From IMG/VR virus record IMGVR_UViG_3300024272_000027: a stretch of 64,000 bases of DNA, one strand, 5' to 3'. A program made the translations under genes and the position numbers. The DNA is from a virus (lineage: Duplodnaviria > Heunggongvirae > Uroviricota > Caudoviricetes). The notes below the pieces were generated by a model. It saw only the letters and a list, made by a program, of their open reading frames with translations. It made no database searches and was not told the origin of the DNA. Below, in pieces: positions 1,771-25,368 of the stretch. Every line of letters begins with the position of its first letter. The first letter of the stretch is position 1.

Positions 1771-2668
1771 CTTTATTTGTCACCTTCTCTAGTAGTTTGC
1801 ATCTGTATGAATAACTCCACGGACAGTCAGGCTTACAGTGCTCTGCGTCTGTAAAACTGCTATGTTTACAACCGCTGAAACCATCGTCCTCATAACAAGG
1901 ATGAGTACCTTCATTTTGAAGTCTTTTCAATAAATCAAGTATCACATTGTAAGCATTGGAACATACTTTATCATATTGTTCAGCTGCTTGTCTGCGTTCT
2001 TTCATATAATGTTTATCTGCTTTATTTAAAAACGTATGCAGCAAAGAGTTATAAAGTTCAAAATCAATTTGTTGGTCATAGTAGGCAGGACGTTGTTGTT
2101 TTAGTCGTCCTATCTTATTCTCATCTTTATAATGATATGTAATAACTCCTATATCACCTGCAATTTCATTTTGAACTTCTTTATATAAGTTGTAAGGCAT
2201 AACATAGTAATTAAGATTGCCAATAAAGTTATGCCCATTCTTGCTATGAAAATCAGCTTTTGAAACTTTTATTTCAAAACAAATACAAGCAACAACTTCA
2301 TCTTTAGCTACTGATTTGCGTTTATAATAACAGCCGCCATCGTAGTTACATTGGAATACGTGATGGTCTGGTATTGATTTCAATTCATCAATAGTTAGTG
2401 CACAAGAATTGTCGTGAGCTAATTCGTTACTCCACATAAGAGCCCTAGGAGCTGAACAGTAATAATCATCTCTATGATTAGCGTACCCTTCAGCTAACCA
2501 CACACAATCAACTAATCCTTTATTTATATGAGCGTGTTCAACGGGTACTTCAAACTCCATATACTGATGTCTACGATAGTTTATCTCTAACTCACTTAGT
2601 TTAGCAGGGGAATAAGAACTTAAAGCGGCTTCTATATTCTTTGTTAGTATTGATTTACTCATCGTCAA
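1745..2668 (-). CDS. Cys/His-rich hypothetical protein (putative metal-binding)
   Basis: ORF track; many CxxC / HxxC-like clusters. Confidence 0.45.
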   Translation of the reverse strand: MTMSKSILTKNIEAALSSYSPAKLSELEINYRRHQYMEFEVPVEHAHINKGLVDCVWLAEGYANHRDDYYCSAPRALMWSNELAHDNSCALTIDELKSIPDHHVFQCNYDGGCYYKRKSVAKDEVVACICFEIKVSKADFHSKNGHNFIGNLNYYVMPYNLYKEVQNEIAGDIGVITYHYKDENKIGRLKQQRPAYYDQQIDFELYNSLLHTFLNKADKHYMKERRQAAEQYDKVCSNAYNVILDLLKRLQNEGTHPCYEDDGFSGCKHSSFTDAEHCKPDCPWSYSYRCKLLEKVTNKGEDNSIIL

Positions 2669-2849
2669 ACTCCACCTTTACCTTACAATCTAGAGGACAT
2701 ACGTCTGGTGCACAGTAATACTTATAAGGGTCACCTAACAGCTCACAACCACATTCTCTGTAACCAGTGTCACTTTCATAATGAGTTGTTTTACAATATT
2801 CACAAGTTTCCCAATCTGTGAGATATACATCTTCCTCTATACGACTCAA
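2655..2849 (-). CDS. small Cys-rich zinc-ribbon protein
   Basis: ORF track; CEYCK...CGC...C...C pattern. Confidence 0.4.
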   Translation of the reverse strand: MSRIEEDVYLTDWETCEYCKTTHYESDTGYRECGCELLGDPYKYYCAPDVCPLDCKVKVEFDDE

Positions 2850-3412
2850 TCTTCACTCAACCTCTTAATATTATTATTGATACGTTTGAACTGTTCACTT
2901 TCAAATATTACGTCAACCACTGACGCTCCAACCGCTTTACTTAATTCACTGTTATAAGTGTCTTTTATCAAACGATTTATTTCACCCTTAGTATCACGTG
3001 CAAAATCTTTCATAGCCGCTTGTATTTGTGTTGTAGGGTTAAGCTCTGATTTAATAAAGTCATCAAAACCTATCTTGCGTTCTTCAGTACGATATGTTCC
3101 CTCTACTTTTATAGTGAATGTCTTATCTTGGAAAGTTTTTTCAATCGTGCTGTTGATGTACTGACGAGGAGTCATCATTACCGGTTCACAGCCTAATCCT
3201 GTGCCAATAGGTATTTCAGTCTTATCAATATAATCACGAATAGATTGCTCTAGTATTTCATTTGTAATCTGTTCGATTTTATCTTTGTAATTTGCATTTA
3301 TAAAAGAAGTCGCTACTGAACGTATTGCATCTTCAATAGCCTCACCTGTCTGTTTTTTAGCAACTTCTTCAATTACGCCTTGAAGATTTTCTAAGTCAAG
3401 TGTTATTTTCAT
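2846..3412 (-). CDS. hypothetical protein
   Basis: ORF track. Confidence 0.45.
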   Translation of the reverse strand: MKITLDLENLQGVIEEVAKKQTGEAIEDAIRSVATSFINANYKDKIEQITNEILEQSIRDYIDKTEIPIGTGLGCEPVMMTPRQYINSTIEKTFQDKTFTIKVEGTYRTEERKIGFDDFIKSELNPTTQIQAAMKDFARDTKGEINRLIKDTYNSELSKAVGASVVDVIFESEQFKRINNNIKRLSED

Positions 3413-16789: not shown

Positions 16790-17960
16790 GTTGATAAGGT
16801 CCAACTGAAAACACCACTCGTAGTCTATGACTGTTTACGTCAATTGGACAACTACGTTGCCCCAGAGAAGTCTAACCCAATTCTCGCCTGCATCTAACTT
16901 CTTCTCTGCCCGCCAACACATCCACATACCTGTGCACTAATATCATCACCAATATTACTGATAATCTCAAGATTCGGCTTATTATTCCTACTACCCAATA
17001 TATCTGGGAATATACTCCCTTGATGAATTCTCATTCCTCACTTCAAGTATAAGATTAAGCAGTTTATATCCTCTTATACCGTTTAGTGTCGTGCGCTCCA
17101 CTCAGGGCAGTCGGCTACCACTTATAACCAAAAGTACTATATACCTCAGATTATAAGCTGTCCGAAATTCATACCCAGCCTTGTAAGCCTTTGCGAGGCT
17201 ACTGCCAAATATGACCTCACTGACCTATTCTGCGTGGGGTCTCCTATCTTCTTGTGCGGAGTTTCCAAATTCGTACCTTCAAAAACATATACAACAATTA
17301 CCCCTTCGGGTTACTGATAACTATTTTCAAACATATTCAGTCACATAGATGACAAGTCTGAGCTTCGAGTAGCGACCTCTAACTTCTTGCCACGAAGTCT
17401 GGGCTTCCCGTTAACGGCGGGACCCTGGACCACAAAAACTATGACAGGAATGATTACCTGTACCTTTCACCGTCTGTTCAGAAGAATTTGATAATTTTTA
17501 ATTTCTAAATTATATGTTCTTCACTTACCAATGGTCTTCGGCTACTTGGAGATTGGATGAGCATCTTATACTTTCTCTTTCGAGAACATCACGACCAACA
17601 CTCTTACGGCTATTCCAAGGTTTATATACAGTCACCAGCTAAATATCTAACTTGGATTCGGAAAGGCCTGTTCAGCACAATCTTTCAATTACGAGTGCGA
17701 TGCACATTCTACCTTTGTTTGCAATAATCTCAGTACAGAGTCCGTTCCATTGAAGTTTACTTCTGCAACCTTAAGCATCACTACTTAAAGTAACGACATT
17801 TTCCGAGTATCCTCTTACGTTCCTCTGTCGTGGAACAGTATCCGAAGATTTAGGACCCTTCTCAGCATTGGAAGCGTATCCAATGTTTATCACTGAGTTA
17901 TATTGTATACGTTTGTCAAGGTACGAATATAAGTTTTATTTTTATCTATGTCAGTTAAAA
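16790..17960 (-). ncRNA. candidate large structured ncRNA (ORF-free, GC-enriched 1.15-kb spacer inside the tRNA array; strand uncertain)
   Basis: No ORF of 60 aa or more on any frame between 16182 and 18193 apart from tRNAs; local GC clearly above genome average; multiple GC-rich hairpins with UUCG/GAAA-type loops (e.g. CCCCUUCGGGG at about 17300, CCGUUAACGG at about 17415). Confidence 0.3.
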
Positions 17961-17978
17961 CTTATAAATAACTTCCAT

Positions 17979-18053
17979 TGGAGCTGATGATAGGATTCGA
18001 ACCTACAACCAGCTGATTACAAATCAGCTGCTCTACCATTGAGCCACATCAGC
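17979..18053 (-). tRNA. tRNA-Thr(UGU)
   Basis: Acceptor GCUGAUG/CAUCAGC, D-arm UGGCUCAAUGGUAGAGC, anticodon arm GCUGA-UUUGUAA-UCAGC. Confidence 0.7.
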
Positions 18054-18149
18054 AAATATATGTAAAGGTTTGTAAAAGTAGCGCTAGTGCAGGCACCAAC
18101 TCTCAAAGACTCCACCTTTGTGTCTTCTGCACTTATTTATTATACAATA

Positions 18150-18183
18150 ATTATATATTAAAATCTTAAAAGATTCAACTAAA
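18150..18183 (-). promoter_or_regulatory. sigma70-like promoter upstream of tRNA-Thr (TTGAAT - 17 - TATAAT)
   Basis: Minus read TTAGTTGAATCTTTTAAGATTTTAATATATAAT. Confidence 0.45.
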
Positions 18184-18192
18184 TCTTATATT

Positions 18193-18975
18193 TTATTCTG
18201 AACAATCTATCCACTTAGTACCGTTGTATATCTTAGGAGTTGCTTTTACCCACTTAGTGCCGTTATATATATGAGCACTGTAAAACTTACCTCCAATATG
18301 AACACCATACTTTGTAACTTCAGGTTCGGGTTCGGGCTCAGGTTCAGGCGGTGTAGGAGGGTTTGGATTATCAGGCACCTCTGCAACGCCTGGGTTAACA
18401 ACAAATCCTAAACACACAGTTCCGGACGGACAAGTGTTTTGATAAGGCCATAAGTTATTAGAACCTCTACTAATCGTTCGAGTGTCACAACACCAGCCTG
18501 TACCGTCAGTACTTAATTCAGTCCACGATGGTGTGTTATAACCTGATTGGATAATAGTTATTGTGTTATTATCAATAACTTCGGCAATGTAAGCAACGTG
18601 ATTAGCTCCGCCACCCCAAGCAATCAATCCTCCAACCGGAGGAACGCCTGATGCTGCTATAGTGGTTAACCCTAATGATTGCGCAGTCTCAATAGTTTTA
18701 TTGCCGTTACGTACAAATCCATAATACTGTTTAGCAGTAAAGTTACTATTAACAAGTTGTTTACATTTTACATAAGTTTCATTGAATGCACCATTTGCAA
18801 GTCCTACACAGTTACATAAAACATCTGCACCGCTTCGTACAGGGCTACCTGCAATACAACCGGAGTAACCTCCACTGGATGTGCGATTGTAAAATTTGTT
18901 GTTTTTTACTATATAACCATTTTTACGGATACCGTTCACAAAAGATTCGGATTTTAAACCCTTATTAACAGCCAT
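18193..18975 (-). CDS. cell-wall hydrolase / endolysin: N-terminal CHAP-like cysteine peptidase, PEPEPEPEPE linker, C-terminal YNGTKW repeats
   Basis: Cys motif GYSGCIAGS and His motif GGANHVAYIAEV typical of the CHAP/NlpC-P60 fold; Pro-Glu linker; duplicated cell-wall-binding-like C-terminal repeats. Confidence 0.5.
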   Translation of the reverse strand: MAVNKGLKSESFVNGIRKNGYIVKNNKFYNRTSSGGYSGCIAGSPVRSGADVLCNCVGLANGAFNETYVKCKQLVNSNFTAKQYYGFVRNGNKTIETAQSLGLTTIAASGVPPVGGLIAWGGGANHVAYIAEVIDNNTITIIQSGYNTPSWTELSTDGTGWCCDTRTISRGSNNLWPYQNTCPSGTVCLGFVVNPGVAEVPDNPNPPTPPEPEPEPEPEVTKYGVHIGGKFYSAHIYNGTKWVKATPKIYNGTKWIDCSE

Positions 18976-18980
18976 CTACA

Positions 18981-19796
18981 TCACTTCTTAAATAAGTTTA
19001 ACATCCAGTTAATTATCTTATATATGACATCAATAAATTTACCACGTACGGGGACCATTACATCTGAAGGTAAATCATCAACTAATCCTTTTGCTTCTGC
19101 AACTGGGATTTCATAAGGGAGAATAAATCTACCATTTGTACCCCAGTTAGTTCCCCAACTGTTTTGACATAAGAAACCTCTTGCATTCCAACCGTAAATC
19201 ATAACAGCGTGATAACCATAATCGCCTTTTCGAGCTCCTGTAAGAACTCCATCTTTATCACACTTGAAAGTGTCATACCACTTGATAGAACATAATACGG
19301 GACCGTAATTATATAAAGCTCTTTGGATATCATCCACAGTTGTACAGTTAAAATATGTCTTTGTATTGAAGTTTGCAGCCCTTTCTTTACGGTCTTCGTG
19401 TGTTAAAGCTTCTTCCGCTATCTCCCACGATTTGGGCACTTCGTCATTACCAGGGCAATCTGATTCTAACATATCACCATAAGTAGTAACTATCTTGCAA
19501 GCGTCTCTAAGATACATACCTGAACCTTCGTGACCACAAAGTTGTTTCTGTATTCCATATATAAAGTTTGTTGATAGTGTATTATTGCCAATACCCATAT
19601 CGTGAAACTCAAGGATAGAACTTGTTGTATGTGCTACACAAGATGAAACACTTCTTTGATTTTTAACTTTAGGTAACCCTTTTTGAGGAATATATGCAAC
19701 GGGTAAAGGATTACTACTAGTTGATTTTGCTAATCTAAAGTCCCTGACGTCAACTTTAGGAGGCATACAGCCGTAATCATAATGTATCTTACTCAT
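18981..19796 (-). CDS. papain-like (C1-type) cysteine peptidase
   Basis: Cys motif SVSSCVAHTTSS, His motif GYHAVMIYGW, and QNSWGTNWGTNGRF matching the C1 NSWG..WG..GY signature. Confidence 0.5.
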   Translation of the reverse strand: MSKIHYDYGCMPPKVDVRDFRLAKSTSSNPLPVAYIPQKGLPKVKNQRSVSSCVAHTTSSILEFHDMGIGNNTLSTNFIYGIQKQLCGHEGSGMYLRDACKIVTTYGDMLESDCPGNDEVPKSWEIAEEALTHEDRKERAANFNTKTYFNCTTVDDIQRALYNYGPVLCSIKWYDTFKCDKDGVLTGARKGDYGYHAVMIYGWNARGFLCQNSWGTNWGTNGRFILPYEIPVAEAKGLVDDLPSDVMVPVRGKFIDVIYKIINWMLNLFKK

Positions 19797-19854
19797 CTAG
19801 GACCTGTCCTTTCTGACATTACCAACCACGCTCTTTTTCGTTAGAATGCATCCA

Positions 19855-19989
19855 TCATCTGCCGCCTTCTCTATCTTCAATGTTTCTAAGTTTTCTCATA
19901 AGTTTCTTAACAATTCTTCCGTTATCCTTACCTCTGTTTGTAAGTAACTGAATTCTGTTCTCATAGTAAAGTTTATCTCTTATAACCAT
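19855..19989 (-). CDS. small basic protein (about 44 aa, not in ORF track)
   Basis: ATG with GAGGTGA RBS 6 nt upstream; reads MVIRDKLYYENRIQLLTNRGKDNGRIVKKLMRKL... Confidence 0.25.
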   Translation of the reverse strand: MVIRDKLYYENRIQLLTNRGKDNGRIVKKLMRKLRNIEDREGGR

Positions 19990-19999
19990 TGGATTCACC

Positions 20000-20164
20000 T
20001 CATATATGTTTTGACTTAATAAATCCACATTTATCGCAACACATTACAATCTTCTCACCACAAGGACGTTTTGCAAAGTCATCCTCATAAAGAAGTACAC
20101 GTTTTATAACTGTGAACTTATGAGCGCAAAAACATTGTCTTATGTACATCAATAAACTTCTCAT
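20000..20164 (-). CDS. small Cys-rich protein (ORF-track start at 20224 overlaps tRNA-Ser; internal Met start used)
   Basis: ORF track 20000..20224; CFCAHK...CGEKIVMCCDKC Cys cluster; upstream part overlaps the tRNA-Ser 3' end. Confidence 0.3.
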   Translation of the reverse strand: MRSLLMYIRQCFCAHKFTVIKRVLLYEDDFAKRPCGEKIVMCCDKCGFIKSKHI

Positions 20165-20192
20165 CAATAAGTCTTCTTTCAATAAAATAAAA

Positions 20193-20278
20193 TGGCGGAA
20201 CCGCCGCGACTCGAACGCGGACAACCTTTCGGTTGGACACCTTAGCAGGGTGTTGAGATACCATTACTCCACGGCTCC
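20193..20278 (-). tRNA. tRNA-Ser(GCU), type II
   Basis: Anticodon arm ACACC-CUGCUAA-GGUGU, long variable arm CAACCGAAAGGUUG, T-arm CGCGUUCGAGUCGCG, CCA encoded. Confidence 0.7.
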
Positions 20279-20530
20279 ATAGAATTCACTGTGGACAACT
20301 TCTCACTAGTCACCGGATATCAGTGTGCATATCCTTTACTAGTGCGTTTATCTTTTATCTATAGAGCACTACCAATATAGATACACGGGCACAGCTACTT
20401 TACTCCGTGGTGACGATTAGCTGATTATCACGTCCAACGATGTCCCCGCCCCAGTACTCTCCCAGTAGGAACTTAAAAACTATATATAGTTAGGATGTCC
20501 ATATTTGAAACTTCCACGCTGGACAAGCGC

Positions 20531-20618
20531 TGGCGCCGGATGAGGGACTCGAACCCCCACAGACTTGCATCTGAACGGTTTTCAAGACCGCTGCAGTTCC
20601 AATTATGCTTAATCCGGC
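20531..20618 (-). tRNA. tRNA-Ser(UGA), type II
   Basis: Acceptor GCCGGAU/AUCCGGC, anticodon arm GCGGU-CUUGAAA-ACCGU, long variable arm, T-arm GGGGGUUCGAGUCCCUC. Confidence 0.65.
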
Positions 20619-20629
20619 ATATAATTAAA

Positions 20630-21245
20630 ATGTGGTTTTTCGCGATGCTCCTGATTCACACGCCTTGTCCTTACCTAATCGGGCTAATGTGTTATACCCT
20701 CTCGACCACGAACACTTCAGGTCTACCTTTCGGCGAGTAGTATATTCCGACCTACTAACGAGTTGGGGACTTTATTTTACTTCGTTGCTCCAACCCTCGA
20801 AGTTACTTACCATAACACTTGGATAAAAACTACCCAGACCCATCCGGAAAACTGGGGTAGATATGCTAGCTTTCGATTAAATAGGCGAGGCACAGCCCAA
20901 CCAATATCTCACATATCTCACTTAGTATATTATGCTTACTTTGGACCGGATTTTTATACCTCAGAGCACCCGGAAACTGAGGAGTATTTATGACTTAAAA
21001 GATACGTAGCCAATGACTGCATAGTTCTCCCAGTATCATAAACCATTTAGTGTATAGTCATTCGTTCGACCGGATTTTTGTTTGATTATCAAAGTTATCA
21101 TCTTCACTAGGCCTATTCGTCGCTGCCTATTGTCTGAGCGTCTGTGAGCACATCGGACTTTCCTCACAGCTCTTAGTAGTCTCTACAGTATGAGTCACTG
21201 ATTTATAGGAAAAGTGTTGTGCCTTTTAACCTATGCAAGACCTCA
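20630..21245 (-). ncRNA. second ORF-free GC-enriched spacer in the tRNA array, candidate structured ncRNA
   Basis: About 600 nt without ORFs; repeated GNRA-type loop motifs on the minus strand (CCGAAAGG, CCAGUUUUCCGG, CUCAGUUUCCGGG). Confidence 0.25.
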
Positions 21246-21255
21246 ATCCGTCTAG

Positions 21256-21332
21256 TGGTACCCACTGAGAGACTCGAACTCCCGACACCTTGGTTCGTAG
21301 CCAAGTGCTCTAATCCACTGAGCTAAGTGGGC
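21256..21332 (-). tRNA. tRNA-Arg(ACG)
   Basis: Anticodon arm CUUGG-CUACGAA-CCAAG, D-arm UAGCUCAGUGGAUUAGAGC. Confidence 0.7.
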
Positions 21333-21341
21333 ATATGTATA

Positions 21342-21416
21342 TGGTACCCTCACTAGGAATCGAACCTAGATAGCGGCCTTAGAAGGACCGAGTTCTATCC
21401 ATTGAACTATGAGGGC
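21342..21416 (-). tRNA. tRNA-Arg(UCU)
   Basis: Anticodon arm CGGUC-CUUCUAA-GGCCG, T-arm UAGGUUCGAUUCCUA. Confidence 0.65.
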
Positions 21417-21604
21417 AAATACTGGAAGCTTCCTACACCGTTTCGGATAGAGGTTTACCAACCCCAATGCATTGTCGCCCGTTTATGCTTTGGTCACTAA
21501 CGGTCCGTTAAATATACCCTTGTTACACCGCTATTTGATTTATAGGCGTTACCCTATGGGAAGTTATCATAACAACAGGACATTCTTCCCCGACTGGTAC
21601 AAGA

Positions 21605-21678
21605 TGTCGGATTCGAACCGCGCTGCATCATCCCAAATGACGCGTGCTACCATTACACTACATCCTGTATATTGATGG
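21605..21678 (-). tRNA. tRNA-Pro(UGG)
   Basis: Anticodon arm CGUCA-UUUGGGA-UGAUG, T-arm GCGCGGUUCGAAUCCG. Confidence 0.65.
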
Positions 21679-21685
21679 AGGAAAG

Positions 21686-21759
21686 TATTGGAGTCGAACC
21701 AATTTAAAGCGGGTTGCAACCGCCTACATAGCCGTCCTGACCACTTTCCTTATGGTGGG
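21686..21759 (-). tRNA. tRNA-Cys(GCA)
   Basis: Acceptor GGAAAGU/ACUUUCC, anticodon arm GGCGG-UUGCAAC-CCGCU. Confidence 0.65.
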
Positions 21760-21762
21760 AAG

Positions 21763-21837
21763 CCAGGGACTTGAACCCTGCCTAAGAGAGCCACAACCTC
21801 TCGTGCTACCGCTACACTAGCAACCCCGTATAAGATG
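21763..21837 (-). tRNA. tRNA-His(GUG) with extra 5' G; acceptor stem carries two U.U mismatches
   Basis: Anticodon arm AGAGG-UUGUGGC-UCUCU; 5' GGGGUUGC vs 3' GCUUCCC. Confidence 0.55.
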
Positions 21838-22034
21838 ATTTACAGATATTCCGGATATATCTCTTTATGAAAGCAAATCAATTCCAACACTTAGCTCTTA
21901 ACTTAAGTTCGTTTTCGTACAACTTAGCAAACAAGTATTAACAAACTTTAAAACGGAAGGTTTTCTGGTACTACCTACAAACCCAACACTGTCGTAGTGG
22001 TACGCATAGCCTTGTACAGAGGGGCTTGACCTCT

Positions 22035-22119
22035 TGGTGGGCAGGGTGGGTGTCGAGCCCACTATTCCCGAAGGAGCCGGATTTACAGTCCGGTGCGTTT
22101 GCCGATTCGCTACCTACCC
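22035..22119 (-). tRNA. tRNA-Tyr(GUA), type II
   Basis: Acceptor GGGUAGG/CCUGCCC, anticodon arm CCGGA-CUGUAAA-UCCGG, long variable arm CUCCUUCGGGAAUAGU. Confidence 0.65.
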
Positions 22120-22487
22120 GTATTATATAAATGACTTCTCCTACTGTTAACCACTTAGGTATGTGCTCCGCTGCTTTCCGTCATTAGCAGGATTGACCTT
22201 TCCTGAGCCTTCTTACATCAACTGGACATCTCTTATAGTTGCAACTATAAATGGTAACACAAGATGGATTCAAATTGAACCTTATATGTTGATTTAACTC
22301 CACTTCTCCGTAATCAATCGGAATACATTATTTCATTATTCACGTGTCTATGTGCACTATAGATAAACTGGCAACGGGCGAGCTATTTAACTTCGAAGTT
22401 TGCAACCCTCTCCGTGAACACTTCTTCCTCCCAGTAATTAGCTGGTTAACGAGCTTATCCCTGTTAACTAGTATAGTGGACCGCGTC

Positions 22488-22564
22488 TGGTACCTGAAAT
22501 TGGAATTGAACCAACGACCTTCGGGGTATGAATCCGATGCTCTTACCTGCTGAGCTATTCAGGC
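22488..22564 (-). tRNA. tRNA-Met(CAU), initiator-like anticodon arm (UCGGA-UUCAUAC-CCCGA)
   Basis: Resembles the bacterial tRNA-fMet anticodon arm CUCGGGCUCAUAACCCGAAG. Confidence 0.6.
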
Positions 22565-22575
22565 ATATTTAATCT

Positions 22576-22746
22576 TTATTGTTTAAAAGGATTCTCACTG
22601 TTAAGCCATTTCTTTAATTCTTCAGTACACTCAGAGCACAACTCATAGTCTGTATCGCCGTAAGGATGAACATAAATCTTTATCTTTGTATCAGGTGCAT
22701 ACTGCAATACTCTTTTACACTTGTCACATATCTTTGCGTGTCCCAT
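22576..22746 (-). CDS. small zinc-ribbon protein (56 aa, not in ORF track)
   Basis: Reads MGHAKICDKCKRVLQYAPDTKIKIYVHPYGDTDYELCSECTEELKKWLNSENPFKQ with two CxxC pairs; sits between tRNAs. Confidence 0.4.
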   Translation of the reverse strand: MGHAKICDKCKRVLQYAPDTKIKIYVHPYGDTDYELCSECTEELKKWLNSENPFKQ

Positions 22747-22767
22747 CTAAAACCTCATAAACAATAT

Positions 22768-22851
22768 TGGTGCCGGTGACAGGACTTGAACCTGCACGCA
22801 CTTGGCACTAGTTCCTAAGACTAGTGTGTCTGCCAATTCCACCACACCGGC
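22768..22851 (-). tRNA. tRNA-Leu(UAG), type II
   Basis: Acceptor GCCGGUG/CACCGGC, anticodon arm CUAGU-CUUAGGA-ACUAG, long variable arm. Confidence 0.7.
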
Positions 22852-22859
22852 ATACTAGT

Positions 22860-22935
22860 TGGTGGGTTGAGTTGGTATCGAACCAACATCCGTGGATTTT
22901 CAGTCCACTGCATAGACCGTCTTTGCTATCAACCC
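22860..22935 (-). tRNA. tRNA-Phe(GAA)
   Basis: Acceptor GGGUUGA/UCAACCC, anticodon arm GUGGA-CUGAAAA-UCCAC. Confidence 0.7.
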
Positions 22936-22937
22936 AT

Positions 22938-23013
22938 TGGTGTGCCTGAGAGGGCTTGAACCTCCGACAACTCGATTAAAAGTCGAGTGCTCTACCAACT
23001 GAGCTACAGGCAC
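22938..23013 (-). tRNA. tRNA-Lys(UUU)
   Basis: Acceptor GUGCCUG/CAGGCAC, anticodon arm CUCGA-CUUUUAA-UCGAG. Confidence 0.7.
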
Positions 23014-23147
23014 ATATATTATGTTAAAAGGAACTAACAAATCGTGCACCACTACACTATCCGAATCGAACGGTTCTTCAACAATGTTCCTAGGATTGTT
23101 GACGCACACCTCGTGCTCCCGAATTGAACGGTCCTTATTTGTTACCT

Positions 23148-23224
23148 TGGTGCAAGTGAGTGGATTCGAACCACTGACCTTCCGCTTATCAGACGGAAAC
23201 TCTAACCAACTGAGCTACACTTGC
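23148..23224 (-). tRNA. tRNA-Ile(GAU)
   Basis: Acceptor GCAAGUG/CACUUGC, anticodon arm UCCGU-CUGAUAA-GCGGA. Confidence 0.7.
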
Positions 23225-23582
23225 ATAAAAACACCATTTCTGACCATATCGCACTTTATATGTGGAGCATCTGAATCCATTAGCAGATAACCTATTCGTT
23301 AGATAATGGTGTTTAGTTAAAGTACTCTCACTTCTCTTTTGGTTTAGGATGTTCAGATTCAATTAGCTGACAACCCTTGTTGAACTTTCAGTTTTGAGTA
23401 CTAGTTTAATGCCAAGTCTACTCTTTCGTATCTTGCCGGACTTTCACCGCTTGGACTTCTTATATATGAGCATTGCATAAGTCACTCATTCAAGGGATGA
23501 ACCAACCCCCACTCATATATCTATCCTAATCAACCTCAAACGGACAGCTGAAATATCAATAGCAACTTTCACGATTAGGATT

Positions 23583-23658
23583 TGGTGCGGAATGTAGGAC
23601 TCGAACCTACAACTTTCTCCTTGTAAGGGAGGCACGCTTCCAGTTGCGTCAATCCCGC
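23583..23658 (-). tRNA. tRNA-Val(UAC)
   Basis: Anticodon loop CUUACAA, T-arm GUAGGUUCGAGUCCUAC. Confidence 0.65.
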
Positions 23659-23662
23659 ATAT

Positions 23663-23739
23663 TGGTGGGAACGACAGGATTCGAACCTGTGACCTGCCGG
23701 TTATGAGCCGGATGCTCTGACCAACTGAGCTAAGTTCCC
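23663..23739 (-). tRNA. tRNA-Met/Ile2(CAU), third CAU species (loop CUCAUAA)
   Basis: Anticodon arm CCGG-CUCAUAA-CCGG; D-arm UAGCUCAGUUGGUCAGAGC. Confidence 0.6.
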
Positions 23740-23773
23740 ATAAAGGGTGTTGCCACCCTAAAAGATATGTAAC

Positions 23774-24103
23774 TTACTTGCCGATGATGTCGAGAATCTT
23801 CTTACGAACAGCTTCGTTATCAGAAATAACTTTTTCAACATTCGCCTTGTTCTCTTCTGCAAACTTCTTAAGCTTATCAAGGTCAGCAACGGATTTTGTT
23901 AACCCTTTGTTAACGGTCTCAAGCTTATTAGCAGTCTGACGGAACACGCTTAATGCTGAGTCTTTCTGAGTTGAAAAAGTGTCAATGTCGCCAAGAATTT
24001 TTTCCTTTGCAGAAGCAATAACTTCTTCTGTTGTAGGAGGAGTTACAATAGCAACTTGTTTCTTTTTCTTGAAAATGTTTTTCATACTAATACATCCTTT
24101 CAA
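23774..24103 (-). CDS. small coiled-coil protein (ORF-track TTG start; probable ATG start near 24085)
   Basis: ORF track; K/E-rich heptad-like sequence. Confidence 0.4.
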   Translation of the reverse strand: MKGCISMKNIFKKKKQVAIVTPPTTEEVIASAKEKILGDIDTFSTQKDSALSVFRQTANKLETVNKGLTKSVADLDKLKKFAEENKANVEKVISDNEAVRKKILDIIGK

Positions 24104-24120
24104 CTTATCTTTCTAAACAT

Positions 24121-24154
24121 ATTATATAATAAACTCATCAAGAGTTCAACTAAC
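24121..24154 (-). promoter_or_regulatory. sigma70-like promoter (TTGAAC - 17 - TATAAT)
   Basis: Minus read TAGTTGAACTCTTGATGAGTTTATTATATAAT. Confidence 0.45.
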
Positions 24155-24156
24155 TT

Positions 24157-24230
24157 TGGCATACCCTCAAAGATTTGAACTTTGACTAATGGTTTTGGAG
24201 ACCATCGTGCTACCGTTACACCAAGGATAT
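24157..24230 (-). tRNA. tRNA-Trp(CCA)
   Basis: Acceptor AUAUCCU/AGGGUAU (A1-U72), anticodon arm AUGGU-CUCCAAA-ACCAU. Confidence 0.6.
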
Positions 24231-24408
24231 ATGGTGCCAAGTGTTCCCTCTACGGTTGGCAACACTAGCCGTAAGCCACCACTATCAAATTTGACTTGCT
24301 CTATACTTTCAAGAGTCATAGCGTCCTGTGTTGTTTATGCTCTGCACCAAGCGTCCTCAGTGTTGAATGAAGTTCAAAACGCTTCAGGAATCTAAAAACC
24401 ATAGCACT

Positions 24409-24494
24409 TGGCATCTTTGGTAGGGCTCGAACCTACAAGAAGGACTGCGCTGTCCTCAGCCACCTTTTTACGGCAGCCGCGTTTGCCAATTTCG
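24409..24494 (-). tRNA. aberrant type-II tRNA-like gene (Tyr/Leu-like scaffold, A-rich anticodon loop GUAAAAA; specificity unclear, possibly pseudogene)
   Basis: Perfect 7-bp acceptor AUCUUUG/CAAAGAU + G + CCA, D-arm GCGAAAUUGGCAAACGC (near-identical to the tRNA-Tyr D-arm), stem GCUGCC/GGUGGC, long variable arm AGGACAGCGCAGUCCU, T-arm GUAGGUUCGAGCCCUAC. Confidence 0.4.
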
Positions 24495-24881
24495 CCACAA
24501 AGATAAATGGGCGTAACATCAAGAATCGAACTTGAATATCTTCATCTATGTAACTTGTACTTAATTACAATCATTGATGGTCTTTTACCTGGGATTCGGT
24601 TGCTTTACCATTAAGCTATATCACGTTATAAACTGATTTATTTGACTTTAGTGCTGCAGACACCATCCATCATATCGGACATAAATCAAATCCGGCTAGG
24701 CAGCTTGGTTTGTAGTTTCGCATCTACTTTCCTTTCGTGAAATTATCGGAGTGCCTTTGCCGTCTATCCATATAAAACCGAGTCATACGTTTCAGGTTCG
24801 TGTGACTATCACCATACCCACCTATATACGCTGTGGTTCGACTCATTCGTGCGATTTTTAAATATCGGGAAGAGTGTCCCT

Positions 24882-24955
24882 TGGCAGTCCCGACTGGGTT
24901 CGAACCAATAACAACGCAGTCAAAGTGCGTTGTGTTACCATTACACTACGGGACT
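24882..24955 (-). tRNA. tRNA-Gln(UUG)
   Basis: Acceptor AGUCCCG/CGGGACU, anticodon arm ACGCA-CUUUGAC-UGCGU. Confidence 0.7.
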
Positions 24956-25060
24956 ATGTAGTCTTTACTGTTGAAAGACGAAAGTCAACGGTCTTTGCCA
25001 GTTGTCATCTATTTTGCTCCTTGACACATCTAAATAGATAAAAATGTGTCTCAAACGGAC

Positions 25061-25135
25061 TGGTGACGCTACCCGGAGTCGAACCGGGCTTACGAGAATG
25101 AAAATCTCGTGTACTAACCGATATACGATAGCGCC
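25061..25135 (-). tRNA. tRNA-Glu(UUC)
   Basis: Anticodon arm CGAGA-UUUUCAU-UCUCG, T-arm CCCGGUUCGACUCCGGG. Confidence 0.7.
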
Positions 25136-25138
25136 ATT

Positions 25139-25217
25139 TGGTGGACCTTGTGGGAATCGAACCCACCTGATTTCCTCTTTGCAGGAGAGGTGACCACCCC
25201 TTGCAGTCCCAAGGCCC
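25139..25217 (-). tRNA. tRNA-Ala(UGC)
   Basis: Anticodon arm CCUCU-CCUGCAA-AGAGG, T-arm GGUGGGUUCGAUUCCCAC; enlarged D-loop. Confidence 0.6.
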
Positions 25218-25281
25218 TTATGTAAGGAAGGTTGTGTAAGTTTAGGGTTACGGTCGCGACGAACTCTTACAAACTCGACCT

Positions 25282-25368
25282 TGGTGGGGGAGAAGGGACT
25301 TGAACCCTCACGACCAAACGGCCAACGGATTTTAAGTCCGTTGCGTCTGCCTATTCCGCCACTCCCCC
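25282..25368 (-). tRNA. tRNA-Leu(UAA), type II
   Basis: Perfect acceptor GGGGGAG/CUCCCCC, anticodon arm AACGGA-CUUAAAA-UCCGUU, long variable arm. Confidence 0.7.

What the first reader, a model, noticed from the sequence alone, without database searches (positions are those of the whole stretch)
16790..17960. 1.15-kb ORF-free, GC-enriched block inside the tRNA array; candidate large structured ncRNA
Between tRNA-Met (16702-16779) and tRNA-Thr (17979-18053) there is about 1.17 kb with no ORF of 60 aa or more in any frame and no tRNA. Its GC content is visibly higher than the 33% genome background. It contains GC-rich hairpins with stable tetraloops, such as CCCCUUCGGGG near 17300 and CCGUUAACGG near 17415, plus several other UUCG loops. 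Large ornate ncRNAs of the GOLLD and ROOL classes are characteristically found in phages and prophages next to tRNA clusters. In total about 7 kb of the 9-kb tRNA region is neither tRNA nor protein-coding, which is far more spacer than a compact phage genome normally tolerates.
Basis: partly seen in the sequence, partly recalled or inferred. Interest (0 to 1): 0.7.

Follow-up and report, generated by a model that had tools for sequence, protein, structure and literature searches.

The report
ROOL RNA plus an undescribed companion RNA
The gene-free block in this phage's tRNA cluster holds two large folded RNAs side by side: a clear member of the known ROOL family, and next to it a roughly 480-base structured RNA that matches no described family and recurs beside ROOL in a distantly related phage.

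Summary
The block is real and lies on the minus strand, like the tRNAs. Its right-hand 660 nt (17269-17928) is a full-length ROOL RNA: Rfam RF03087 scores 277 bits against a threshold of 99, covering model positions 1-574.

The left-hand 481 nt (16786-17266) is a separate element, which I call X. It has no Rfam match at E<=10 and no profile similarity to ROOL. It has sharp boundaries and recurs at 65-95% identity in seven other metagenomic lineages with unrelated flanks. Its fold is supported by covariation: 32 of 151 pairs change on both sides, against 12 in shuffles and 2-6 in slid controls. One pseudoknot covaries, one hairpin is swapped or deleted, and G.U pairs outnumber A.C mismatches 211 to 9. 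Its only notable ORF (46 aa) is broken in four homologues.

ROOL followed by X is conserved in a distant phage (L021) whose ROOL is only about 49% identical. Two close relatives carry reciprocal deletions (ROOL core lost, or X core lost). X also occurs without ROOL.

Function is unknown for both RNAs. Corrections: GC enrichment is modest (0.404 vs 0.364), and the non-coding share of the array was overstated.

The parts
17269..17928 (-). ROOL RNA gene, 660 nt. The Rfam match covers 17280-17921; the closing stem P1 extends it to 17269/17928.
   Evidence: RF03087, 277.3 bits vs gathering score 99.1, model 1-574/574; 26-nt inverted repeat 17269-17294 / 17903-17928; 20 of 200 predicted pairs keep pairing through changes on both sides among window, L012 and L001, including 2 in the extended outer stem. 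The length matches the 659-nt ROOL env-120 used for cryo-EM (PMC12286853).
16786..17266 (-). Element X: a 481-nt conserved structured RNA with no match to any described family. It starts with GGAAACUCCG 2 nt after the ROOL 3' end, and ends 6 nt before tRNA-Met.
   Evidence: no Rfam match at E<=10; boundaries are sharp across 8 loci whose flanks are unrelated; 151 pairs, 95.8% of cells paired, 32 pairs changed on both sides (shuffles 12.1 +/- 2.5, 0 of 500 reach it; slid controls 2-6); a structure from the window sequence alone gives 26 such pairs (shuffles 10.5 +/- 2.1). G.U 211 vs A.C 9, and no profile similarity to ROOL; fold z = -2.9.
17098..17237 (-). X domain I: a four-way junction closed by an invariant helix. 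It holds a long irregular arm (17160-17224) tipped by a GCAA-containing hairpin (17183-17202), the variable hairpin, and a short hairpin (17106-17119).
   Evidence: helices 3-9. The long arm has 4 pairs changed on both sides and the distal hairpin has 2.
17120..17158 (-). X variable hairpin. It is replaced by an unrelated hairpin in L012 and deleted in L017 and L021, while its basal 5 pairs covary.
   Evidence: helix 7: 3 of 5 pairs changed on both sides.
16911..17095 (-). X domain II, the central domain. The closing helix and the hairpin 17046-17080 hold up; the internal pairing is only partly resolved.
   Evidence: The RNAalifold version (helices at 16946-17026 and 16960-17004) has 5 pairs changed on both sides. 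The window-only MFE version of the same region has none.
16819..16908 (-). X domain III: an arm (16863-16908), a hairpin (16846-16862) whose loop CGUAG (16852-16856) forms a pseudoknot with CUACG (16819-16823), and a hairpin with the invariant loop GUAAACA (16828-16842).
   Evidence: Pseudoknot pair 438/467 is A-U in 4 sequences, G-C in 3 and C-G in 1. Helix 24 has 3 of 4 pairs changed on both sides, helix 22 has 2 and helix 19 has 3.
16786..16809 (-). X 3'-terminal hairpin (CAGUUGG...CAACUG). It is present in all 8 X copies, and is the only part of X retained in L001.
   Evidence: helix 25: 3 pairs changed on both sides (CAGUUG/CAACUG, CGCUUG/CAAGCG, CGGUUG/CAACCG). L001 keeps about 38 nt of the X 3' end between its ROOL and tRNA-Met.
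16894..17034 (-). A 46-aa ORF inside X that public assemblies call as a gene. It is not a real gene.
   Evidence: the frame is broken by stops or frameshifts in L016, L017, L018 and L021. Variable columns by codon position are 17, 16 and 17.
17926..17954 (-). Promoter-like site (CTGACA, 17-nt spacer, TATATT) ending just before the ROOL 5' end. Weak evidence only.
   Evidence: consensus match, 10 of 12. 10 sites were found in the region against 5.1 +/- 2.1 in shuffles, so no single site carries much weight.
16702..16779 (-). tRNA-Met(cat), the downstream flank, 6 nt after X.
17979..18053 (-). tRNA-Thr(tgt), the upstream flank, 50 nt before ROOL.

Best explanation
The block encodes two adjacent large non-coding RNAs on the minus strand, inside the phage's tRNA operon.

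(1) 17269-17928 is a genuine ROOL RNA. By homology with solved members, ROOL folds into a flat multi-junction monomer that self-assembles into a hollow homo-oligomeric nanocage. Its biological role is still unknown.

(2) 16786-17266 is a separate RNA of about 480 nt, X. It has three domains, at least two multi-helix junctions, one covarying pseudoknot, a variable hairpin and a 3'-terminal hairpin.

Shown: ROOL's identity, X's conservation, its sharp boundaries, the strand it is read from, its covariation, its lack of coding capacity, and its independence from ROOL in sequence and in distribution.

Inferred:
- In this phage both RNAs are made as part of the tRNA precursor transcript. They are on the same strand, no terminator lies between ROOL, X and tRNA-Met, and the spacers are only 2 nt and 6 nt.
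- They are released by the tRNA-processing nucleases. RNase P cleavage at the tRNA-Met 5' end would leave X ending just after its terminal hairpin.
- In L021 the two are separate transcription units, with an intrinsic terminator after ROOL and a TATAAT box 6-7 nt before X.
- X acts in trans as a folded RNA in the same infection-stage process as ROOL and the phage tRNAs. The reason is that the order ROOL then X has survived a divergence in which ROOL fell to about 49% identity. Each RNA can nevertheless be lost on its own, so neither is strictly required in cis by the other.
For: ROOL: 277 bits, full length; closing stem; 20 compensatory pairs; phage tRNA-array context, typical of the family per PMC5737381 and PMC12286853.

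X as a structured RNA: 8 loci, 7 lineages, 65-95% identity, unrelated flanks; 32 pairs changed on both sides vs 12.1 +/- 2.5 in shuffles and 2-6 in slid controls; pseudoknot position with three pair types; a structure not derived from covariation gives 26 vs 10.5 +/- 2.1; G.U 211 vs A.C 9: 95.8% paired on the minus strand against 78.7% on the plus strand; z = -2.9, equal to ROOL's.

X is not ROOL. X occurs without ROOL in L014-L017.

Association with ROOL: L021 has ROOL at 340 bits directly upstream of X; ROOL 49% vs X 65% global identity between window and L021; L018 keeps only the ROOL stem arms plus a full X; L001 keeps a full ROOL plus only the last ~38 nt of X.

Co-transcription: (no terminator-like site between ROOL, X and tRNA-Met).
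Against: - No expression data, so transcript ends and processing are inferred.
- Only 8 X sequences from about 7 lineages, several of them more than 90% identical. The covariation tests do not correct for phylogeny.
- The central domain of X is not resolved: two alternative pairings exist, and only one has compensatory support.
- The main structure was derived from the same alignment it was scored on. mitigates this but does not remove it.
- A functional link between ROOL and X rests on synteny in three or four lineages. X stands without ROOL in at least L014, and ROOL stands without X in Streptococcus equinus phages.
- A direct test for conserved ROOL-X base pairing was inconclusive.
- No shared promoter is visible upstream of X across contexts.
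Confidence: 0.8

Rival explanations
1. The whole 1.15-kb block is a single RNA: a ROOL with a long lineage-specific 3' extension.
For: Only 2 nt separate the ROOL 3' end from X, and no terminator lies between them. The tandem order recurs in L012 and L021. GOLLD is known to combine a conserved domain with a variable one (PMC12286853).
Against: X occurs at 77-95% identity with no ROOL beside it in L014, L015, L016 and L017. ROOL occurs without X in L001 and in S. equinus phages. In L021 an intrinsic terminator and a TATAAT box separate the two. ROOL closes on itself through a 28-bp P1 stem. X's boundary is sharp at GGAAAC in every context.
Confidence: 0.08
2. The left 481 nt is non-functional spacer or a decayed remnant (of a gene, of tRNAs, or of an older RNA), and its apparent structure is incidental.
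For: X can be deleted: L001 lacks its core. It is rare: it was found neither in IMG/VR with six motif scans nor in 185,579 representative genomes. The shuffle control does not correct for relatedness.
Against: It is conserved at 65-95% identity where the flanks cannot be aligned at all. There are 26-32 pairs changed on both sides against 2-9 in slid controls, and slid controls do keep relatedness. A hairpin is swapped for another hairpin at the same position. The G.U excess is strand-specific. Between window and L021, X is more conserved than the functional ROOL next to it.
Confidence: 0.07
3. The left part encodes one or more small proteins, such as the 46-aa ORF that public gene callers annotate.
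For: A 46-aa ATG ORF (16894-17034, minus strand) is called as a gene in several assemblies, and five related 'proteins' are in the database.
Against: Homologue lengths are 46, 46, 65, 38 and 36 aa. The frame has internal stops or frameshifts in L016, L017, L018 and L021. Variable columns are spread evenly over codon positions (17, 16, 17 in the ORF; 75, 70, 61 over the whole element). Indels are not multiples of three.
Confidence: 0.02
4. X is (or is the RNA of) a mobile element, such as an intron fragment, a transposon-associated guide RNA or a small mobile cassette, which would explain its appearance in different flanking contexts.
For: X has sharp boundaries and sits behind different neighbours: ROOL, drum RNA, skipping-rope RNA, a tRNA, or a terminator. 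The slot shows presence/absence differences between close relatives.
Against: No match to group I or II intron, HEARO or other Rfam models at E<=10. No terminal inverted repeats or target duplications at the boundaries. No transposase, TnpB/IscB or reverse-transcriptase gene lies beside it in any locus. It is single-copy per genome. The absences in L001 and L018 are deletions that leave remnants, not empty sites.
Confidence: 0.03

Closest known systems
ROOL RNA (Rfam RF03087; Weinberg et al. 2017, PMC5737381; cryo-EM nanocages, PMC12286853 and PMC12990946)
   Same: 17269-17928 is a member: full-length covariance-model match at 277 bits, about 660 nt, a long closing stem, an AU-rich variable linker, phage context inside a tRNA cluster, and base pairs kept through compensatory changes in relatives.
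   Different: Nothing important for the ROOL half. It is about 49% identical to the ROOL of L021 and 85% to that of L001. X, although adjacent, shares no detectable sequence or model similarity with ROOL.
GOLLD RNA (Rfam RF01998)
   Same: The same kind of thing as ROOL and X: a large, elaborately folded RNA of unknown function, encoded by phages and prophages next to tRNA clusters. GOLLD is described as having a conserved domain plus a variable one, with tRNAs sometimes embedded (PMC12286853, PMC12990946).
   Different: No GOLLD model match anywhere in the window. X is shorter (about 480 nt against more than 800) and has a different architecture.
Skipping-rope, drum and DUF3800-I to -XI RNA motifs (Weinberg et al. 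2017)
   Same: Phage-associated structured RNAs of unknown function. Skipping-rope, drum and DUF3800-XI lie directly next to X in L014, L015 and L017, and DUF3800-XI is present in this window at 11133-11179.
   Different: They are 50-110 nt long and typically followed by their own terminators. X is about 480 nt, multi-domain, and matches none of their models.
Bacterial and phage Y RNAs (YrlA) with Ro60/Rsr
   Same: This phage and its relatives L001, L012 and L018 encode a TROVE/Ro60-like protein 2.5 kb downstream on the same strand. Ro60 binds structured non-coding RNAs, so X or ROOL could in principle be clients.
   Different: X lacks the defining Y-RNA layout, in which the 5' and 3' ends form a long stem beside a tRNA-like module. 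Better Y-RNA candidates lie directly after the TROVE gene.

Membership tests
ROOL RNA (RF03087), tested on 17269-17928 | Covariance-model score above the curated gathering score, over the full model | tested here: met
   277.3 bits vs 99.1, E 2e-62, model positions 1-574 of 574, not truncated.
ROOL RNA (RF03087), tested on 17269-17928 | Size of about 580-660 nt, closed by a long terminal stem (P1) | tested here: met
   660 nt. The outer stem of 26 predicted pairs spans 28 nt on each arm (17901-17928 with 17269-17296) and has 2 compensatory changes. The cryo-EM construct was 659 nt (PMC12286853).
ROOL RNA (RF03087), tested on 17269-17928 | Multi-junction secondary structure maintained by compensatory substitutions | tested here: met
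   200 predicted pairs among window, L012 and L001. 20 keep pairing through changes on both sides, and about 4 are broken or gapped in one sequence.
ROOL RNA (RF03087), tested on 17269-17928 | Poorly conserved AU-rich internal linker | tested here: met
   an AU-rich stretch at about 17450-17530 aligned to the model's poorly conserved region around positions 355-410. PMC12286853 describes a disordered linker at nt 414-464 of env-120.
ROOL RNA (RF03087), tested on 17269-17928 | The three predicted pseudoknots, and the kissing-loop residues that build the cage | not tested
   Covariance models ignore pseudoknots, and I did not have the family's pseudoknot annotation to project onto this sequence.
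ROOL RNA (RF03087), tested on 17269-17928 | Phage or prophage location near tRNA genes | tested here: met
   26 tRNA genes on the same strand, and phage replication and recombination genes in the window.
ROOL RNA (RF03087), tested on 17269-17928 | Self-assembly into a homo-oligomeric nanocage | not testable with these tools
   Needs in vitro transcription followed by cryo-EM or mass photometry.
ROOL, GOLLD or any other Rfam 15 family, tested on element X (16786-17266) | Any covariance-model match | tested here: not met
   searching 16700-17350 against all 4,227 families at E<=10 returned only the flanking tRNA and two noise hits; no nhmmer hit between the X and ROOL profiles in either direction.
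Structured non-coding RNA (generic criteria), tested on element X | Conserved base pairs with compensatory changes above controls, strand-specific G.U pairs, variable-length hairpins at fixed positions, and no coding signal | tested here: met
Structured non-coding RNA (generic criteria), tested on element X | A stable, discrete transcript | not testable with these tools
   No expression data available. The terminator plus TATAAT box upstream of X in L021 is only suggestive.
Y RNA / YrlA (RF02553), tested on element X | Model match, or a terminal stem plus tRNA-like module | tested here: not met
   no match; the candidate helices joining X's ends are weak (87.5% and 72.7% of cells paired), with at most one compensatory change.

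The most novel reading that the evidence does not exclude
X is a previously undescribed class of large pseudoknotted phage RNA that works as a partner of ROOL: as cargo, cap, assembly factor or regulator of the ROOL nanocage, or as a second RNA-only assembly in the same pathway. That would explain why the order ROOL then X has been kept while ROOL itself diverged to about 49% identity. It would be the first known RNA partner of an RNA nanocage, and a handle on ROOL's unknown function.
Probability: 0.2. Interest if true: 0.8.

Novelty: new variant of a known kind. Interest (0 to 1): 0.5.

Why it matters
The ROOL half is ordinary: one more member of a known family, found exactly where such RNAs are expected.

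The value lies in the other half. Large, elaborately folded bacterial and phage RNAs are rare, and each one found so far (ROOL, GOLLD, OLE, raiA) has led to unexpected structural biology. The functions of ROOL and GOLLD are still unknown.

X appears to be a further RNA of this kind, with a defined boundary, a testable secondary structure and a pseudoknot. Its conserved position directly after ROOL gives a concrete experiment: fold or co-fold the two RNAs and image them. The natural deletion variants (ROOL only, X only, both) provide comparisons that might expose what either RNA does.

It also shows that one slot in phage tRNA arrays exchanges large RNA cassettes, and that gene callers mis-annotate such RNAs as small proteins.

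Tried and rejected
- Similar DNA among deposited phages and plasmids: none for the block. The L021 ROOL+X query gave only 38-nt ROOL-core matches in S. equinus phages and nothing in plasmids.
- IMG/VR scans with six X motifs: no true hit. The 46 loci returned (L029, L047-L091) match only the short query motif.
- Genome collection scan: chance hits only.
- Metagenome scan: one true hit (L021) and four chance hits.
- Contigs of homologues of the 109-aa neighbour gene: different, protein-dense contexts, no X.
- Paralogues of X elsewhere in the window or in any locus: none.
- X as a diverged ROOL: rejected.
- X as coding: rejected.
- X as degenerate tRNAs: an 18-nt repeat of the tRNA-Met 5' edge at 16988-17005 was not supported by ARAGORN or by the tRNA model at E<=10.
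- Conserved ROOL-X intermolecular pairing: 9 shared sites against a null mean of 1.2, but the null maximum was 13 and the ROOL alignment is unreliable at 49% identity, so this is inconclusive.
- A shared promoter upstream of X: none visible.
- Other Rfam families in the remaining spacers of the array: none at E<=0.05.
- I did not build a covariance model of X. The alignment exceeds the 400-column limit, and only sequence already held could have been searched.
- One 2026 preprint on mining non-coding elements could not be opened.

Full report
OBSERVATION. ARAGORN places tRNA-Met at 16702-16779 and tRNA-Thr at 17979-18053, both on the minus strand, within a run of 26 minus-strand tRNA genes. Nothing longer than 56 aa is open in any frame between them. 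Three details need correcting. The window's GC is 0.364, not 0.33, and the block's 0.404 is matched or exceeded by 10.5% of equal-sized windows. The relevant strand is minus, so the 'UUCG' loops are GAAG-type loops in the RNA. The array from 16492 to 25368 holds 1,891 nt of tRNA, 1,599 nt of two peptidase genes, 1,141 nt of the two RNAs described here and 4,246 nt unassigned, which is well short of '7 of 9 kb' non-coding.

THE RIGHT HALF IS ROOL. A scan of the window against Rfam 15 gives ROOL (RF03087) at 17280-17921 on the minus strand. It scores 277.3 bits against a gathering score of 99.1 (E 2e-62), with all 574 model positions aligned. A 26-nt inverted repeat (17269-17294 with 17903-17928) lengthens the closing stem, which makes the RNA 660 nt. 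The ROOL used for cryo-EM was 659 nt (PMC12286853). Two relatives carry the same RNA at 99.2% (L012) and 85.5% (L001) identity. Among the three sequences, 20 of 200 predicted pairs keep pairing through changes on both sides, two of them in the extended outer stem. The context matches the family description: phages and prophages, often near tRNA islands (PMC5737381, PMC12286853). The window's proteins include an NrdD-like reductase, an SbcC-like nuclease subunit, an ATP-dependent DNA ligase and a UvsX-like recombinase, and the same phage is assembled elsewhere as a 161-kb contig. This half is therefore a new member of a known family. Solved members form hexameric or octameric RNA-only cages, and the function is unknown (PMC12286853, PMC12990946).

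THE LEFT HALF IS SOMETHING ELSE. ROOL ends at 17269, which leaves about 490 nt before tRNA-Met. A permissive Rfam search of 16700-17350 (E<=10) finds only the tRNA and noise. The minus strand folds with z = -2.9, the same as ROOL.

Relatives settle what it is. In L001, the slot between ROOL and tRNA-Met holds about 10 nt where the window has about 460 nt. In L012 the segment is present, and its differences from the window cluster in a pattern typical of structured RNA: one hairpin exchanged for an unrelated hairpin, and paired G-to-A and C-to-U changes.

Gene callers had annotated a 46-aa ORF inside the segment, so I used that 'protein' as an index into the protein database. This led to five more contigs. 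A motif scan of metagenomes added L021.

All copies share an element with sharp ends, from GGAAACUCCG to the hairpin CAGUUGG...CAACUG, which is 16786-17266 in the window. The sequences on either side are unrelated between contexts. I call this element X.

X IS A STRUCTURED RNA READ FROM THE MINUS STRAND. On an alignment of eight sequences (A5), the consensus fold plus one pseudoknot has 151 pairs, and 95.8% of cells are paired. 32 pairs change on both sides. Shuffling the 3' partners gives 12.1 +/- 2.5 such pairs (0 of 500 shuffles reach 32). Sliding the partners by 1-3 columns, a control that preserves relatedness, gives 2-6.

That fold was derived from the same alignment, so I repeated the count with the minimum-energy fold of the window sequence alone. 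It gives 26 pairs changed on both sides, against 10.5 +/- 2.1 in shuffles and 2-9 in slid controls.

The pseudoknot joins the loop CGUAG (16852-16856) to CUACG (16819-16823). One of its positions is A-U in four sequences, G-C in three and C-G in one. The 3'-terminal hairpin appears as CAGUUG/CAACUG, CGCUUG/CAAGCG and CGGUUG/CAACCG. One hairpin (17120-17158) is swapped in L012 and deleted in L017 and L021, while its base covaries.

G.U pairs outnumber A.C mismatches 211 to 9. The fold therefore works only for a minus-strand transcript: 95.8% of cells pair on that strand, against 78.7% on the other. The central domain (16911-17095) is only partly resolved.

X is not coding. The 46-aa frame is broken in four homologues, indels are not multiples of three, and variable columns show no codon periodicity. 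X is not a diverged ROOL, and it is single-copy per genome.

RELATION TO ROOL. X occurs with no ROOL next to it in L014 (beside drum and skipping-rope RNAs), L015 and L017 (after skipping-rope) and L016 (after a tRNA). It is therefore a separate module, not a ROOL extension.

The association is still not random. L021 is the most distant X homologue, at about 65% global identity. It carries a full ROOL (340 bits) directly upstream of X, and that ROOL is only about 49% identical to the window's. In L021 an intrinsic terminator and a TATAAT box lie between the two RNAs, so they look like separate transcription units.

L001 and L018 are close relatives with reciprocal deletions. L018 keeps only the two arms of the ROOL outer stem, fused into a hairpin, followed by an intact X. 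L001 keeps an intact ROOL followed by only the last ~38 nt of X. The tandem is therefore probably ancestral in this group, and each RNA can be lost separately.

ROOL-like sequences in Streptococcus equinus phages have no X. A search for conserved ROOL-X base pairing was inconclusive.

HOW IT PROBABLY WORKS. Shown: two independently folding RNAs, their strand, their limits and their conservation. Inferred: in this phage they are transcribed with the tRNAs, since no terminator-like site separates ROOL, X and tRNA-Met and the spacers are 2 nt and 6 nt. They would then be released by tRNA-processing nucleases. ROOL presumably forms its cage. X presumably acts in trans as a folded RNA in the same stage of infection. 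Nothing here reveals the biochemical activity of either RNA.

NOVELTY AND LIMITS. I found no Rfam family, no deposited phage or plasmid, no IMG/VR contig and no representative genome that contains X. None of the papers I could search describe a ROOL companion RNA; only homo-oligomers are reported. Absence from these sources does not prove that nobody has described X. The sequence set is small, the shuffle control ignores phylogeny, and there are no expression data.

VERDICT. The same block also contains a well-supported and apparently undescribed large structured RNA, whose conserved position after ROOL is worth testing experimentally.

Noticed in passing
window 11623-14261 (minus strand): A 558-aa TROVE/Ro60-like protein (12585-14261; Pfam TROVE E 4.7e-6; PHROG 850 'RNA-binding protein') is followed by a 962-nt spacer. 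The spacer holds sub-threshold Y-RNA-like (YrlA) matches at 11822-11894 and 12141-12228, and tRNA-like matches at 12447-12508 (38 bits) and 12197-12254. This is probably a phage Ro60 plus Y-RNA module. The gene and parts of the spacer are conserved in L001, L012 and L018.
   Followed up: partly
window 20828-21078 (minus strand); L021 5293-5544; L001 8325-8638: A non-coding block between tRNA-Arg and tRNA-Ser is 95.6% identical to the sequence immediately 3' of X in L021, far more conserved than X or ROOL between these phages. It looks like two tandem units of about 125 nt, each starting AAAAUCCGGUC and ending in a CC.CAGUUUCCGG...CUG.GG hairpin. It has no conserved ORF and no Rfam match. The start motif resembles a tRNA T-arm.
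   Followed up: partly
window 11133-11179 (minus strand): A DUF3800-XI RNA motif lies just above the Rfam threshold (39.4 vs 37.8 bits). The same motif, with skipping-rope RNA, lies directly upstream of X in L017. Drum and skipping-rope RNAs flank X in L014 and L015.
   Followed up: no
window 24409-24625 (minus strand): Two odd tRNA-like genes sit side by side. ARAGORN calls a 96-nt tRNA-Phe with anticodon AAA (24409-24504). The tRNA model also matches a 115-nt stretch (24511-24625, 37 bits) that would need a long insertion.
   Followed up: no
window 23740-24156 (minus strand): This 'spacer' contains a gene called in public assemblies (103 aa, 23774-24085). It also folds unusually well (rough z about -4.4) and is 69% conserved in L001. 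The tRNA array is therefore not free of protein genes.
   Followed up: no
L018 208-253 and L001 11983-12020: These two close relatives carry clean reciprocal deletions. In L018 the ROOL core is removed and its two outer stem arms are left as a hairpin. In L001 the X core is removed and only its 3' hairpin is left. They are natural single-RNA variants, useful for experiments.
   Followed up: yes
L093 (Streptococcus phage Bsingle, PQ621708) 2730-3051; L092 (Javan207, MK448703) about 2570-3220: A ROOL-like sequence lies after the lysin gene in Streptococcus equinus phages and is not annotated as RNA. In Bsingle, two small 'hypothetical protein' CDS are called across it. In the same way, the 46-aa ORF inside X is called as a gene in several metagenome assemblies.
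   Followed up: partly
window 18193-19796 (minus strand): Two peptidase genes (a CHAP-domain protein and a papain-family C1 peptidase) sit inside the tRNA array, just upstream of tRNA-Thr and ROOL. The pair is syntenic in L001, L011, L012 and L013.
   Followed up: no
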